Assembly: GCA_017448985.1 (NCBI GenBank) | Contig: JAFSKL010000010.1 | Span: forward strand, 20,250 to 84,249 | Origin: Paludibacteraceae bacterium | GTDB taxonomy: Bacteria > Bacteroidota > Bacteroidia > Bacteroidales > Paludibacteraceae | Direction: 5' to 3' | DNA length: 64,000 bases | In this document: positions 4,261 to 34,116 of the stretch, in pieces | Position numbering within the stretch: position 1 is the stretch's first letter | Layout of the letters: each line of letters opens with the position of its first letter | Notes under the pieces: generated by a model | What the model saw: only the letters and a program-made list of their open reading frames with translations | Told to the model about the DNA's origin: nothing | Databases searched by the model: none | Position numbers and translations under genes: made by a program

Positions 4261-4290
4261 TAAAATGGTAAATGACCATATGGTAAATCT
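4261..4290. repeat. Degenerate AAATGGT/AAATGAC array at the gcvT start
   Basis: atggtaaatgacCATatggtaaat. A near-identical 24-mer occurs at the patatin gene start (5409-5432). Confidence 0.6.
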
Positions 4291-5380
4291 CAAGACAACT
4301 CCGTTTACGGATATTCACATTGCGTTAGGCGCAAAAATGGCAGAGTTTGCCGGTTTCAATATGCCTATTCAGTACCCTACTGGCATCAATCAGGAGCACA
4401 TGATCGTTCGCGAAGGTGTCGGCGTGTTTGATGTCAGCCACATGGGCGAGTTCTGGGTGAAAGGCGAGAAAGCGCTGGACTTCCTGCAGTATATCACCAC
4501 CAACGACCTGTCGGTCATACCGGCAGGCAAGGCGCAGTACACCTGTATGCCCAACGGCAAAGGCGGTATCGTGGATGATCTGATCATCTATAAATACTCC
4601 ACCACCAAGTACCTCATGGTAGTCAATGCCGGCAATATAGACAAGGACTGGGCGTGGGTCAACCAAATTAAAAATGAAAAATTAAAAATTAAAAATTGGG
4701 GAGATCTCTCTTTGGACAATGCCTCGGACCGTTACGGCCAATTGGCGGTGCAGGGACCGAAGGCGGTGGAACTGCTTCAACTGCTCACCGACCTGGACCT
4801 CAAGTCCATCGACTATTATGCGTTCCGCGAGTGGAGTTTTGCGGGCGTACCGGGTGTCATCCTGTCGAACACCGGTTATACCGGTGCCGGAGGCTTCGAG
4901 CTCTATTTCCCTGCCGACAAAGGGATACAGATCTGGAACGCGCTCTTCGAAGTGGGCAAGCCGTTTGGCCTGGCTCCTATCGGTCTCGGTGCCCGTGACA
5001 GCCTGCGTTTGGAGAAATGGTACTGTCTCTACGGCCACGATATCGACGATACCACCTCACCGCTCGAAGCAGGTCTCGGATGGATCACCAAGCTCGATGC
5101 CAAGGAGTTCATCGACCGCGATTTCCTCAAACAGCAGAAAGCGGAAGGCGTCCAACGCAAACTGGTACACTTCGAGTGCCAGGAGCGTGCTATCCCGCGG
5201 AACGGCTACGACATATGCGATGAATCCGGCAATAATATAGGTCATGTCACCTCCGGCATCATGCTGCCCAACACCAAAACGGGCATCGGAATGGGCTATG
5301 TGCAAACACCCTTTGCCAAGAAAGAGAACATCATCTATATCCGCATCCGCGAGAAACTGATTCCCGCCAAAATTGTCTAA
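4265..5380 (+). CDS. gcvT: Glycine cleavage system aminomethyltransferase T
   Basis: [28 protein letters not shown] and FDVSHMGEF motifs. An alternative start is ATG 4280, because the first 5 codons come from the AAATGGT-type repeat. In-frame heptamer array at 4665-4699. Confidence 0.9.
4665..4699. repeat. Heptamer array x5 inside gcvT
   Basis: AAATTAA AAATGAA AAATTAA AAATTAA AAATTGG. Encodes [11 protein letters not shown]. Confidence 0.9.
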
Positions 5381-10668: not shown

Positions 10669-10723
10669 AGTGCGTGATAAGTGCGTCGTAAGTGCGCGGT
10701 AAGTGCGCGGTAAGTACGAGATA
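10669..10723. repeat. 11-bp tandem array x5
   Basis: AGTGCGTGATA AGTGCGTCGTA AGTGCGCGGTA AGTGCGCGGTA AGTACGAGATA. Confidence 0.9.
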
Positions 10724-10734
10724 ATAGGGGTTGT

Positions 10735-10767
10735 CAGATACGCGTCAGGTATGCGTTAGGTACGCGT
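10735..10767. repeat. 11-bp tandem array x3
   Basis: CAGATACGCGT CAGGTATGCGT TAGGTACGCGT. Confidence 0.85.
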
Positions 10768-10918
10768 CTAGAACCCTTCAATATGCAAACATCAAAATTC
10801 CCGTTTCTATGCCCAACTCAAAGGCAAACCCAATCCTATCGCACCCAAAGACAAAGACGACAACTTCATCCGCGCCGCTTGATATTTTTAGATAATTTTG
10901 CGCTTTTTTCTCTTTTTA

Positions 10919-10981: not shown

Positions 10982-12793
10982 ATGAAGAATATACGGAATT
11001 TTTGTATCATTGCGCATATAGACCACGGCAAGAGTACGCTGGCGGACAGGATGTTAGAGTTGACGGGTACCGTCGATGTTCGCAGCATGGAAGCACAGGT
11101 GCTCGACGACATGGACCTGGAGAAAGAACGGGGCATCACGATAAAGAGCCATGCGATACAGATGAATTATAAGTATAGGGGTGACGGGTTACCGGTTACG
11201 GGTGACGGGATGTTCACTCTTAATCTCATCGATACTCCGGGGCATGTGGATTTCAGTTATGAAGTGAGCCGGAGTATAGCGGCTTGCGAGGGAGCGGTGT
11301 TAGTTGTAGATGCGACGCAAGGCGTTCAGGCGCAGACGATATCGAACCTGTACATGGCCATCGAGCACGACCTCGAGATCATTCCCGTGATCAACAAATG
11401 CGACATGGACAATGCGATGCCGGAGCGTGTGGAGGACGAGATAATAGACCTGTTGGGTTGCAAGCGCGAGGAGATACTGCGTTGTTCGGCGAAGACGGGC
11501 GAGGGCGTGACGGAGATATTAGATGCCATCGTGGAGCGTATCCCGGCACCGGTGGGCGACCCCGACGCACCGCTGCAATGCCTCGTCTTCGACTCTGTAT
11601 TCAACTCGTTCCGCGGTATCATAGCCTACTTCAAAGTGGTGAACGGGACGATGCACACGGGTGACCGCGTGCGGTTTGTGAACACGGGCAAGGAGTACGA
11701 CGCGGACGAGATAGGTATCCTCAAATTAGACATGAGCCCTCGCAAGGAGATAAGCGCCGGCAATGTGGGGTACATCATCTCGGGCATCAAGACCTCGACC
11801 GAGGTCAAAGTGGGCGACACGATCACGCATGTGGCGCGACCGTGCGAGGCGGCGATAGACGGTTTCGAAGAAGCCAAGCCGATGGTGTTCGCGGGCGTCT
11901 ATCCGATAGAGACGGAAGACTACGAGGACCTGCGGGCATCGTTAGAAAAGCTGCAGCTGAACGACGCGAGTCTGACGTTCCAGCCGGAGAGTTCGATGGC
12001 GTTGGGCTTCGGTTTCCGCTGCGGGTTCCTCGGGTTACTGCACATGGAGATAGTGCAGGAGCGTCTGGACCGCGAGTTCGACATGGACGTTATCACCACG
12101 GTGCCGAATGTGTCGTACAATGTCTATACCAAAGACGGCAACATGGTGGAGGTACACAACCCCGCGGGAATGCCGGACCTGACGGAGATAGACCGCATTG
12201 AGGAGCCGTACATCCGCGCGAGCGTCATCACCGTGGCCGATTACATAGGGCCGATCATGACGCTGTGTTTGGGCAAGCGCGGCGAACTGGTCAAGCAGGA
12301 GTACATCAGCGGTAACCGTATGGAGCTGCTGTTCGACATGCCGTTAGGCGAGATAGTGATCGATTTCTACGACAAGCTCAAGTCGATCAGCAAGGGCTAC
12401 GCGTCGTTCGACTGGCACATGAACGGCTTCCGTCCGTCCAACCTCGTCAAGCTGGACATCCTGCTGAACGGCGAGCAAGTGGACGCACTCTCTACCCTCA
12501 CCCATCGCGACAATGCTACGGACTTCGGCCGGCGCATGTGCGAGAAACTCAAAGAGTTGCTACCTCGCCAACAGTTCGACATAGCGATACAGGCGGCGAT
12601 AGGTGCGAAGATCATTGCGCGGGAGACCGTGAAGCAGGTGCGCAAGGATGTGTTGGCCAAGTGTTACGGCGGTGATGTGAGCCGTAAGCGCAAGCTGCTC
12701 GAGAAGCAGAAACGCGGCAAGAAGCGGATGAAACAAATAGGCAATGTGGAAGTGCCGCAAAAAGCCTTCCTCGCTGTTTTGAAACTGGATTAG
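10982..12793 (+). CDS. lepA: Translation elongation factor 4
   Basis: [33 protein letters not shown], and C-terminal [23 protein letters not shown]. In-frame heptamer array at 11179-11209. Confidence 0.95.
11179..11209. repeat. Heptamer array x4 inside lepA
   Basis: GGGTGAC GGGTTAC CGGTTAC GGGTGAC GGG. Encodes [10 protein letters not shown]. Confidence 0.85.
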
Positions 12794-12802
12794 TTTCAAA
12801 AC

Positions 12803-12830
12803 AATGAATAATGATTAATGAATAATGAAT
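12803..12830. repeat. AATGAAT-family heptamer array x4 (left flank of the four-helix-bundle gene)
   Basis: AATGAAT AATGATT AATGAAT AATGAAT. Confidence 0.9.
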
Positions 12831-12847
12831 ATCTCGCTGAATGTAAC

Positions 12848-13237
12848 ATGGAAGAAACTAAAATATACAATTTAGGCATATTAGAAGATAAAACATATTC
12901 GTTTGCGCTACGAATCATCAAAGCACATAAATATCTAACAGACAAGAATGAATATATTCTCTCAAAACAACTCCTTCGTTCAGGAACTTCCATTGGGGCA
13001 AACTGTCGAGAGGCCACATTCGCTCAAAGTAAGCAAGACTTTGTTAACAAATTAAGTATAGCTTTAAAAGAGACAAACGAAAGTATCTATTGGATAGAAC
13101 TATTGCATGATTCCGGATTTATTACCGATGATAGCTTTGATTCCATTCATGCTGATGGCACAGAAATATTAAAACTATTAATCGCTATCATTAAAACATC
13201 AAAAAGTAATATCCAAAAAATTAAAGATATTCATTAA
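12848..13237 (+). CDS. Four-helix-bundle protein (23S rRNA intervening-sequence protein family)
   Basis: SIGANCREATFAQSKQDFVNKLSIALKETNESIYWIELL is the family signature. Very AT-rich. Flanked by inverted heptamer arrays. The longer start at 12818 lies inside the repeat. Confidence 0.8.
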   Translation: MEETKIYNLGILEDKTYSFALRIIKAHKYLTDKNEYILSKQLLRSGTSIGANCREATFAQSKQDFVNKLSIALKETNESIYWIELLHDSGFITDDSFDSIHADGTEILKLLIAIIKTSKSNIQKIKDIH

Positions 13238-13266
13238 TCATTATTAATTATTAATTATTCATTAAT
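13229..13266. repeat. Inverted AATGAAT-family array x5 (right flank of the four-helix-bundle gene)
   Basis: ATTCATT AATCATT ATTAATT ATTAATT ATTCATT AAT. This is the reverse complement of the left-flank family. Confidence 0.9.
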
Positions 13267-29354: not shown

Positions 29355-30107
29355 ATGGCAAGAATTAAAATGGTGGCAGGTAACTGGAAAATGAACAAGA
29401 ACCTGCAGGAAGGTGTAGCATTGGCTACCGAGTTGAAAGAGGCTGTGAAAGCCCCGAAGTGTGCCGTTGTTATCGGTACTCCTTTTATCCACTTGGCTAC
29501 CGTAGCCGAGTTGCTCAAAGGCTCGCCGATTAAGGTGGCGGCTGAGAACTGCGCGGACCACGAGAAAGGTGCGTACACCGGTGAGGTGAGTGCCGAGATG
29601 GTGAAATCGACCGGCGCCGAGTACGTCATCTTGGGTCACTCGGAGCGTCGTCAATACTACGCCGAGAGCTACGAGATGCTGGCTCAGAAAGTGCGTCTGG
29701 CTTTGGCTAACGGGCTGAAGGTGATTTTCTGCATCGGCGAGGTGAAAGAGGAGCGCGAGGCTGGTCGTCAGAACGAAGTGGTGAAAGCCCAACTCGAAGG
29801 TTCGGTCTTCGGTCTGAGCGCCGATGAGTGGAAGCAGATCGTGCTGGCTTACGAACCCGTTTGGGCAATCGGTACAGGTCTGACCGCTACGCCGGAGCAG
29901 GCACAGGAGATACACGCGTTCATCCGTTCGCTCGTGGCTGAGAAATTCGGCAAAGAGGCAGCGGAGGACACCACTATTCTCTACGGCGGCAGCTGCAACG
30001 AGAAGAACGCAGCCGAACTGTTCGCTTGTCCGGACATCGACGGCGGCCTGATCGGTGGTGCCGCACTCGTGGCAGAGAAGTTCTTAGCTATCATCGCTGC
30101 GCGATAA
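29355..30107 (+). CDS. tpiA: Triosephosphate isomerase
   Basis: [27 protein letters not shown] and YGGS motifs. Confidence 0.97.
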
Positions 30108-30145
30108 CTAGTCTACTAGTCAACTAGTCTACTAGTCAACTAGAA
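30106..30145. repeat. 8-mer array x5 after tpiA
   Basis: AACTAGTC TACTAGTC AACTAGTC TACTAGTC AACTAGAA. ACTAGT palindromes recur every 8 nt. Confidence 0.9.
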
Positions 30146-34076: not shown

Positions 34077-34116
34077 ACTAGTTGACTAGCGGACTAGTTG
34101 ACTAGCCGACTAAAGA
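34077..34116. repeat. 8-mer array x5 in the korA-korB spacer and korA 3' end
   Basis: ACTAGTTG ACTAGCGG ACTAGTTG ACTAGCCG ACTAAAGA. Same ACTAG core as 30106-30145. Confidence 0.9.

What the first reader, a model, noticed from the sequence alone, without database searches (positions are those of the whole stretch)
11179..11209. Heptamer insertion in the LepA G domain just before the DTPGH (G3) motif
Seen in sequence: GGGTGAC GGGTTAC CGGTTAC GGGTGAC encodes ...[26 protein letters not shown].
From memory of E. coli LepA ([30 protein letters not shown]), the segment between ITIK and IDTPGH is 7 residues longer here. That equals 21 nt, or three heptamers. This G/C-rich unit differs from the A/T-rich families elsewhere, so the phenomenon is not restricted to AT-rich units.
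Basis: partly seen in the sequence, partly recalled or inferred. Interest (0 to 1): 0.6.

Follow-up and report, generated by a model that had tools for sequence, protein, structure and literature searches.

The report
Heptamer repeat cassette inside LepA loop
A 30-base run of 7-base repeats sits in frame in the translation factor LepA (EF4) of an uncultured rumen Paludibacteraceae bacterium and adds ten residues at a hairpin tip that tolerates inserts. It is one copy of a repeat family scattered through this genome's housekeeping genes, so it is real and curious but not a new kind of thing.

Summary
Window 11179-11209 is a period-7 array of 4.4 units. Bases 11180-11209 encode G67-G76 ([10 protein letters not shown]) of LepA, at the tip of the beta2-beta3 hairpin just before the DTPGH motif. 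It is also 8 longer than in other Bacteroidales families and 12 longer than the commonest form in its own genus. "Three heptamers" therefore depends on the yardstick chosen.

The unit is not a one-off. GGGTTAC/GGGTGAC arrays occur 19 times in this genome. Thirteen are read as (V)TG[YDN]GL[RQP]V inside LysS, MiaB, RimO, LigA, ValS, RecQ and other proteins. The genome holds 458 period-7 arrays, against 0 in a simulated genome, and their modal length is 30-33 nt.

Across the genus this LepA loop ranges from 16 to 49 residues in at least 12 sequence types, and several are clear heptamer arrays of other families. Loop type disagrees with the tree of the flanking gene, and the mismatches cluster beside the loop, which points to short-patch recombination. 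Within this species the loop does not vary.

Best reading: a translated, tolerated repeat passenger. How the arrays are copied remains unknown.

The parts
10982..12793 (+). lepA (EF4) gene, 603 aa, all G motifs intact
   Evidence: ORF list and translation. 751 bits over the full length to E. coli LepA 3CB4. Precomputed Pfam hits include PF00009, PF03144, PF00679 and PF06421.
11132..11146 (+). GITIK (G2/switch I end), upstream anchor of the variable segment; residues 51-55
   Evidence: Read from the sequence. Invariant in 41 aligned relatives.
11165..11218 (+). variable hairpin segment N62-T79, the only indel site of LepA in the genus
   Evidence: Every LepA length in the genus equals 591 plus the loop extension. 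The AF2 model gives beta2 58-64, coil 65-76, beta3 77-84.
11179..11209 (+). period-7 tandem array as called by TRF (4.4 units)
11180..11209 (+). 30-nt in-frame element GGT GAC GGG TTA CCG GTT ACG GGT GAC GGG, encoding G67-G76 [10 protein letters not shown]; holds an internal 21-nt repeat (GGTGACGGG appears twice)
   Evidence: The same 24-mer occurs in lysS and polA of this genome and at 39 sites in about 20 related MAGs.
11231..11245 (+). DTPGH (G3 motif), residues 84-88, unchanged

Best explanation
The tract is one copy of a dispersed family of short heptanucleotide arrays (unit GGGTTAC, with recurrent GGGTGAC and CGGTTAC variants). It lies in frame in lepA and is translated as a ten-residue Gly/Asp/Pro-rich coil at the tip of the beta2-beta3 hairpin of the G domain. 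By the topology of Ras-like G domains this turn should lie away from the nucleotide pocket (inferred, not modelled here). This genome and its genus carry hundreds of such arrays, typically 30-33 nt long.

Arrays that sit inside genes survive only where three conditions hold: the length keeps the frame, the reading strand is free of stops, and the site is a permissive surface loop. The LepA hairpin tip is such a site. It is the only indel site in LepA across the genus, and it has been filled, refilled and swapped many times.

The allele here is old enough to be shared, at equal length and in the same register, with the sister lineage. It has since changed by point substitutions (Tyr to Asp, Arg to Pro relative to the family consensus GYGLRVT) and probably by in-frame 21-nt slippage or conversion. 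It is most likely a tolerated passenger with no role in EF4 catalysis.

Shown: the repeat, its family, the in-frame reading, the insertion site, the diversity across the genus, and the stability within the species.
Inferred: translation, neutrality, the 21-nt slippage, and the unknown way in which arrays are copied to new sites.
For: Repeat and chance.

Family: 19 arrays with this unit. Of the 15 that lie in ORFs, 13 are read on the same strand as (V)TG[YDN]GL[RQP]V, including [11 protein letters not shown] in LysS.

The exact 24-mer GGGTGACGGGTTACCGGTTACGGG occurs at 39 sites in about 20 Paludibacteraceae/Bacteroidales MAGs. 35 of these lie in ORFs >=120 aa, and 25 of the 39 arrays are about 31 nt.

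Translation: for families with stops on only one strand, in-ORF arrays lie in the stop-free orientation 56 times against 26 (p=0.0012). All 26 long lepA loops keep the frame.

Site: alignment to 3CB4 and the AF2 strand-coil-strand model with pLDDT 73-80 in this region.

Hot spot: genus loops span 16-49 residues in at least 12 types. Pooled lag-7/14/21 self-match in long loops is 0.40/0.39/0.38, against 0.24 elsewhere in the gene. Clean arrays of other families sit at the same site, for example AATGGAA x4 in G172 and AGTCGAA x3.5 in G017.

Age: the sister L072 has a loop of the same length and register, with parallel differences in both 21-nt repeats.

Stability: the loop is identical in 6 protein variants, and the window's own exact protein was seen on 19 contigs.
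Against: The AF2 model is poor overall (mean pLDDT 47), so the loop's position relative to the other domains and the ribosome was not modelled. No sampled pair shows a clean 'empty site plus cassette', so insertion as a single event is inferred. The recurrence of the same variant pattern at many loci could reflect copying of a master element or convergent selection (stop avoidance, Tyr/Arg removal); these were not separated. Neutrality is assumed, not tested.
Confidence: 0.85

Rival explanations
1. The loop is a functional or selected hypervariable region of EF4. Diversifying or balancing selection (for example against a toxin, phage factor or partner that touches this hairpin) keeps many alleles, and the heptamers are only the raw material.
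For: There are at least 12 loop types in one genus. Loop types disagree with the flank tree (AU p=5e-6, 0.003, 0.02), while sister pairs hold in all three gene segments. This pattern resembles trans-species polymorphism.
Against: The same repeat families sit in variable loops of many unrelated housekeeping proteins. LysS has two such loops, so nothing here is specific to EF4. The loop does not vary within this species. The sequences are low-complexity and poorly conserved. Mismatches clustered beside the loop fit plain short-patch recombination.
Confidence: 0.08
2. This is ordinary loop-length variation. The period-7 pattern is a coincidence of Gly/Asp codons and has nothing to do with the genome's repeats.
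For: Hairpin-tip length varies among EF4s in general. In 122 diverse representatives the segment is 16-22 residues in most, but 27-60 in 17.
Against: A simulated genome has 0 period-7 arrays against 458 in the real one. An identical 24-mer occurs in lysS and polA of this genome and at 39 sites elsewhere. Lag-7/14/21 peaks appear across the long loops.
Confidence: 0.02
3. The array is a slippage switch (a contingency locus). Gain or loss of single 7-nt units turns lepA off and on.
For: A 7-nt unit shifts the frame. Heptamer and other simple repeats drive phase variation in some bacteria (background summarised in PMC4692102).
Against: The units are imperfect (83% match). No length variant or frameshifted form appears among the 6 protein variants or the 19 contigs that carry the window's own exact protein. 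Across species only in-frame lengths are seen.
Confidence: 0.03
4. The tract is not part of the mature protein: it is removed from the mRNA or bypassed by the ribosome.
For: Nothing direct. No expression data could be consulted.
Against: If the tract were removed there would be no pressure to stay in frame and free of stops. Yet orientation is biased towards the stop-free strand (56 against 26), stop-bearing units are mutated where they fall in frame (gcvT-like ORF), and all loop lengths are multiples of 3.
Confidence: 0.02

Closest known systems
Heptanucleotide long simple sequence repeats of prokaryotes (Mrazek et al. 2007, as summarised in PMC4679880 and PMC4692102; cyanobacterial STRR, from my own knowledge of Mazel et al. 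1990)
   Same: These are tandem 7-nt units, strongly over-represented in particular lineages, with several unit families per genome and no known mechanism.
   Different: The published cases are mainly intergenic and are described as under-represented in coding regions. Here about 44% of arrays lie inside ORFs, and this one is read inside a universally conserved GTPase.
G-rich heptamer repeats GGGNATC / GGGGA(T/C)T of Xanthomonas and Nostoc (Rehm et al. 2015, PMC4692102)
   Same: The unit is a G3-containing heptamer with a clear preference for about four units. The lepA tract has four GGG runs.
   Different: That paper ties the four-unit preference to G-quadruplex formation. In this genome the same 30-33 nt mode holds for AT-rich families that cannot form G4, and no G4 is predicted for the lepA tract. 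The published repeats are mostly non-coding.
TAACTGA direct repeats of Beggiatoaceae, cyanobacteria and a few Bacteroidetes (MacGregor 2015, PMC4679880)
   Same: Sets of 2-6 heptamer copies are dispersed over the genome. Orientation relative to ORFs is constrained by stop codons in the unit, and a few sets lie inside ORFs.
   Different: There is a single unit, located mostly just upstream of start codons and proposed to be regulatory. Here there are many unit families, and the array is translated in housekeeping genes.
Rickettsia palindromic elements (RPE; Ogata et al. 2000, from my own knowledge; mentioned in PMC1779305 and PMC10969869)
   Same: A dispersed repeat family is inserted in frame into unrelated essential proteins and is tolerated, presumably as extra surface peptides.
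   Different: RPEs are 100-150 bp palindromic elements, not 30-nt tandem heptamers, and they occur in a different phylum.

Membership tests
LepA / EF4 (host gene) | Full-length similarity to solved EF4 structures, including the LepA-specific C-terminal domain | tested here: met
   751 bits, query residues 1-601 against 1-593 of E. coli LepA 3CB4. PF06421 LepA_C is among the precomputed domains.
LepA / EF4 (host gene) | Intact GTPase motifs G1-G5 | tested here: met
   [24 protein letters not shown] and SAK are all present in the translation. The insert lies between G2 and G3 and touches neither.
Heptanucleotide simple-sequence-repeat arrays (LSSR/STRR type) | Head-to-tail copies of a 7-nt unit, far more frequent in the genome than chance allows | tested here: met
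   TRF on the window. 458 arrays in the genome against 0 in an order-5 Markov simulation.
Heptanucleotide simple-sequence-repeat arrays (LSSR/STRR type) | Mainly intergenic, under-represented in coding sequence (as described in PMC4692102 and PMC4679880) | tested here: not met
   This array is in an ORF. 202-226 of the 458 arrays lie inside ORFs >=100 aa. ORFs cover about 88% of the genome on my rough map, so coding sequence is still depleted of arrays, but far less than published.
Heptanucleotide simple-sequence-repeat arrays (LSSR/STRR type) | Copy number varies between strains | tested here: not met
   The loop is identical in all 6 protein variants of the 90% cluster; the window's own exact protein was seen on 19 contigs. 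Variation appears only between species.
Phase-variable contingency locus | Near-perfect repeats whose unit number changes shift the reading frame within populations | tested here: not met
   83% unit match. No frameshifted or length variants within the species. Read-level data were not available.
RPE-like in-frame selfish insertions | A dispersed family of near-identical copies inserted in frame into unrelated housekeeping proteins | tested here: met
   19 copies in this genome, found in LysS, MiaB, RimO, LigA, RecQ-family, Lpd, RluA-family, ValS and PolA. The 24-mer occurs at 39 sites in related MAGs.
RPE-like in-frame selfish insertions | Palindromic element of 100-150 bp | tested here: not met
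   The tract is a 30-nt direct tandem repeat. Folding is not unusual: MFE -17.6 against a shuffle mean of -14.9, sd 3.0.
G-quadruplex-forming heptamer repeats | Four G3 tracts able to fold into a quadruplex | tested here: inconclusive
   The sequence has GGG runs with loops of 4, 11 and 4 nt. ViennaRNA with G4 enabled predicts no quadruplex in the MFE structure.

The most novel reading that the evidence does not exclude
The arrays may not be slippage products. They may be discrete, frame-neutral cassettes of about 30-33 nt, pre-adapted to be read in either orientation ([10 protein letters not shown] one way, [10 protein letters not shown] the other). An unknown mechanism would copy them into permissive loops of essential proteins. 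The EF4 hairpin tip would be a recurrent landing and exchange site, with alleles then passing between species by very short recombination tracts.
Probability: 0.3. Interest if true: 0.8.

Novelty: new variant of a known kind. Interest (0 to 1): 0.5.

Why it matters
EF4 is one of the most conserved bacterial proteins. In one rumen genus, however, a single hairpin tip in its GTPase domain ranges from 16 to 49 residues and is built largely from heptamer repeats.

This gives a clean natural experiment on three questions: where a core translation factor tolerates insertions, how unexplained heptamer repeats colonise coding sequence, and how such loop alleles move between species.

The fixed array size (30-33 nt in all families) and the exact recurrence of one variant pattern at dozens of loci are constraints that any proposed mechanism must explain. 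They also argue against the published G-quadruplex explanation for the four-unit preference. For annotation, such loops are a source of protein length differences that should not be mistaken for assembly errors.

Tried and rejected
2. The AlphaFold2 model built from 41 close homologues was poor overall (mean pLDDT 47). Only the local strand-coil-strand result is used, and the loop was not placed relative to the other domains or the ribosome.
3. G-quadruplex or unusual RNA structure at the tract is not predicted, and the MFE is within one sd of shuffles.
4. I considered that the unit arose locally from the ancestral 'AAG GGT TAC' of the short loop form, which contains GGGTTAC. I dropped this as the main explanation once the same unit and variant pattern turned up at 18 other loci. 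Microhomology at the site remains possible.
5. I looked for a clean empty-versus-filled pair in lepA (L036 against L057, L043 against L032) and in lysS. In every case the loop is replaced rather than simply filled, so no target-site signature could be read.
6. The exact 24-mer recurs in related MAGs. This cannot separate copying from convergent selection, because I searched only for that one pattern.
7. AU tests on loop types used groups named after the tree was seen, so they count as supporting evidence only.
8. My ORF map is a greedy set of ATG-started ORFs >=100 aa, not a gene caller. At least one 'host ORF' (C5:63313-64494) looks spurious.

Full report
OBSERVATION. The lepA ORF runs from 10982 to 12793 on the + strand and encodes 603 aa. 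Tandem Repeats Finder calls 11179-11209 a period-7 array of 4.4 copies, 83% matches, score 41, unit GGGTGAC. Bases 11180-11209 read GGT GAC GGG TTA CCG GTT ACG GGT GAC GGG, which encodes G67-G76 ([10 protein letters not shown]). This lies between GITIK (residues 51-55) and DTPGH (residues 84-88). An order-5 Markov genome of equal size gave no period-7 array at this score, against 458 in the real 2.36-Mb genome. The tract is therefore real and not a chance pattern.

HOW MUCH LONGER, AND AGAINST WHAT. phmmer against PDB chains aligns the protein over its full length to E. coli LepA 3CB4 (751 bits), with 7 extra residues exactly here. The same holds against Thermus EF4.

In ten other families of the order, the segment from GITIK to DTPGH is 30 residues. 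Here it is 38, and in most species of the same genus it is 26 (…[17 protein letters not shown]). The excess is therefore +7, +8 or +12 residues depending on the yardstick, and 'three heptamers' has no special meaning. Among 122 diverse EF4 representatives, the stretch between GITIx and DTPGH is 16-22 residues in 101, but 27-60 in 17. Several of the long ones look like translated heptamers (…LKIENWKL…). The hairpin tip is thus a generally permissive site, and 28 residues puts this protein in the upper tail.

STRUCTURE. The AlphaFold2 model from 41 close homologues is poor overall (mean pLDDT 47), but the G domain is usable. It gives strand 58-64, coil 65-76 and strand 77-84, with block pLDDT of 80 and 73. 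The insert is the turn of the beta2-beta3 hairpin. By the topology of Ras-like G domains (established knowledge) this turn lies at the end of the sheet away from the P-loop and switch regions. I could not place it relative to the ribosome.

THE UNIT IS A FAMILY.
- Rotations and reverse complements of GGGTTAC account for 18 further arrays in this genome, and several share the lepA variants. C36:38758 reads GGTTACGGGTGACGGGTTACCGGTTACGGG.
- Of the 15 arrays inside ORFs, 13 are read on the same strand. They give (V)TG[YDN]GL[RQP]V in LysS (twice), MiaB, RimO, LigA, a RecQ-family helicase, dihydrolipoyl dehydrogenase, an RluA-family synthase, ValS and others. The first seven names are confirmed with NCBIfam.
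- LysS carries [11 protein letters not shown], the same peptide as LepA.
- The exact 24-mer GGGTGACGGGTTACCGGTTACGGG occurs at 39 sites in about 20 genomes, almost all rumen or gut Paludibacteraceae/Bacteroidales MAGs. 35 lie in ORFs >=120 aa: 13 are read as [10 protein letters not shown] and 22 on the other strand as [10 protein letters not shown]. 25 of the 39 arrays are about 31 nt long.
- On the reverse strand the GGGTGAC variant removes the in-frame TAA. On the forward strand it turns Tyr into Asp. The recurrence may therefore be copying of a master element or convergent selection, and I could not separate the two.

GENOME-WIDE CONTEXT.
- Period 7 dominates the repeat spectrum: 458 arrays, plus 156 of period 14 and 43 of period 21.
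- Array length has a mode at 30-34 nt rather than a monotonic decline. The mode holds in every large family, AT-rich ones included. For example, 52 of 68 AAAAATT arrays are 32-35 nt. The G-quadruplex explanation offered for a four-unit preference in Xanthomonas and Nostoc (PMC4692102) cannot account for this.
- About 44-49% of arrays lie inside ORFs >=100 aa on my rough ORF map.
- For families whose unit has stops on only one strand, in-ORF arrays lie in the stop-free orientation 56 times against 26 (p=0.0012).
- Stop-bearing units are mutated exactly where they fall in frame. An example is AAT TAA changed to AAT GAA in the gcvT-like ORF at 4665-4697.
- These points argue that the arrays are translated, not removed.
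- Sampled loci of the genus carry about 1.1 period-7 arrays per 10 kb, against 0.2 in other families of the order and 1.9 in this genome.

THE LepA LOOP ACROSS THE GENUS.
- The genus has more than 200 species genomes, and 183 of 201 searched gave a LepA match. About 21 of the 150 listed matches are longer than the short form.
- Sequences from 59 genomes of the genus plus 120 metagenome proteins show loops of 16-49 residues in at least 12 sequence types.
- Several are clean heptamer arrays of other families: AATGGAA x4 (MENGKWKMEN) in G172, AGTCGAA x3.5 (SRKSKVESQK) in G017 and relatives, ACCAAGG (QGTKDQVP) in G206/G116, and CAGnnnT in the PSA type.
- Pooled over 26 long loops, self-match is 0.40, 0.39 and 0.38 at lags 7, 14 and 21. 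The baseline is about 0.25, and other parts of the same genes give 0.24.
- Every LepA length in the genus equals 591 plus the loop extension, so this is the only indel site in the protein.
- LysS behaves the same way. It has two hypervariable loops, which in this genome are filled by GGGTTAC arrays and in relatives by other sequences or by nothing.

HISTORY OF THIS ALLELE.
- On the tree of the flanks, the sister of the window's gene is a metagenome contig, L072 (support 100/80), followed by G003.
- L072 has a loop of identical length and register: AAT GGC GAA AGG CTA AAG GTT AAT GGC GAA AGG (NGERLKVNGER), 67% identical in nucleotides.
- Both alleles contain an exact internal repeat at a spacing of 21 nt (GGTGACGGG here, AATGGCGAAAGG there). 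The differences between the alleles occur in parallel in both copies. This is the signature of concerted evolution. The likeliest cause is loss and re-duplication, or conversion, of 21-nt (three-unit, seven-residue) blocks, which are the only slippage steps a coding array can take. This is an inference.
- A more distant contig, L071, carries GGT GAG GGG TTA CCG GTT ACG GGT GAC AGG, which is 27/30 identical. A clade of the two is not rejected (AU p=0.24).
- Within the species, the exact protein is found on 19 contigs, and the five other variants of its 90% cluster all have the same loop. The tract is stable, not hypermutable.

LOOP TYPE AGAINST GENE TREE.
- Loop types do not follow the flank tree. 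G116 (28-residue QGTKDQ type) and G107 (35-residue PSAVSHQ type) are sisters (100/100), with flanks 96-100% identical right up to the loop. G172 (AATGGAA array) is sister to short-loop G068. A STDR-type loop sits inside a short-loop clade.
- Holding each type together is rejected for three types (AU p=5e-6, 0.003, 0.02) and not for a fourth (p=0.09). The caveat is that these groups were named after the tree was seen.
- The sister pairs hold in all three thirds of the gene.
- The few flank differences cluster within about 30 nt of the loop. In L042 they include a TCG Ser codon and CTGAATCTGATT, both shared with STDR-type genes rather than with its sisters.
- The simplest reading is short-patch homologous recombination that carries loop alleles between related species, using the highly conserved flanks. 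I put this at about 0.6. Balanced polymorphism is a weaker alternative.

COMPARISON WITH WHAT IS KNOWN. Heptamer repeats are a recognised but unexplained class. Examples are the long simple sequence repeats of Mrazek et al., the cyanobacterial STRR, the TAACTGA repeats (PMC4679880) and the G-rich GGGNATC/GGGGAYT repeats (PMC4692102). All are described as mainly intergenic. In its effect on proteins this case works like the Rickettsia palindromic elements (my own knowledge), but it fails their defining size and palindromy. It fails the tests for a contingency locus.

Earlier notes of this scan report the same in-frame heptamer phenomenon in this and other Paludibacteraceae genomes, and once in lepA of a Uhrbacteria genome. 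I treated these as leads and re-derived the points used here.

VERDICT. The tract is a translated, tolerated copy of a dispersed heptamer-array family at the one permissive loop of EF4. It is a new variant of a known kind and of moderate interest. The open question is how arrays of fixed size and recurrent sequence reach so many loops.

Noticed in passing
window 12794-13266: A 139-aa four-helix-bundle (23S-IVS-protein-like) ORF at 12818..13237 lies between lepA and the CitMHS-type transporter gene. It is bracketed by inverted heptamer arrays (12803-12831 AATGAAT; 13228-13264 TATTCAT). In metagenome contig L072 lepA is followed directly by the transporter gene with a 31-nt spacer, so the small gene is an insertion here.
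   Followed up: partly
window 4665-4697: An AAATTAA array inside a gcvT-like ORF (4265..5380) reads [12 protein letters not shown]. The units that would put TAA in frame are changed to GAA and TGG.
   Followed up: partly
own genome, all contigs: Period-7 arrays have a sharp modal length of 30-34 nt in every unit family, AT-rich ones included (for example 52 of 68 AAAAATT arrays are 32-35 nt). Simple slippage does not predict this, and G-quadruplex formation cannot explain it.
   Followed up: partly
own genome C36:38621-40204 (lysS) and C45:25089-26435 (rimO): LysS carries two GGGTTAC-family arrays ([11 protein letters not shown] and EPVTGEGLPVTG), in two loops that are hypervariable across the genus. 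RimO carries arrays of three different families ([34 protein letters not shown]).
   Followed up: partly
L071:1404-3215: In ENA contig ERZ1667816 scaffold_15411 the lepA gene has an in-frame TAG where this window has GAG (codon 365), which splits the called gene in two. This could be a sequencing error, a pseudogene or a readthrough site; I did not resolve which.
   Followed up: no
L074 7487-7556 vs L075 7422-7482: In two genomes with about 95% identity (G116, G107), the same intergenic spot holds an 8-mer AACTAGTN array in one and a heptamer GCTGAAN array in the other. Arrays are replaced by arrays of another family at the same site, as in the LepA loop.
   Followed up: no
window 10669-10768: Two 11-mer arrays (AGTGCGCGGTA x4.3 and GTCAGGTACGC x3.3) lie just upstream of lepA. 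11-mer and 8/16-mer families (for example 30106-30143 and 34077-34112, AACTAGTC type) recur in the window alongside the heptamers.
   Followed up: no
L024:1414-1466: A genome of another family of the order (G032) has a perfect TTAATTG x7.6 array close to its lepA gene. Heptamer arrays are therefore not strictly confined to the genus.
   Followed up: no
L109:1621-1644: The single hit of the 24-mer outside Bacteroidales is in a Vicinamibacterales MAG, inside a 578-aa open frame on the pattern's strand that I did not check as a gene, read as RVTGYRLRE. It is probably chance or contamination.
   Followed up: no
own genome, unit families: From memory: the family AATGACC (8 arrays) is a rotation or complement of the cyanobacterial STRR2 unit TTGGTCA, and GGTTACAGG variants resemble the fission-yeast telomere repeat. 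These are unchecked coincidences of sequence.
   Followed up: no
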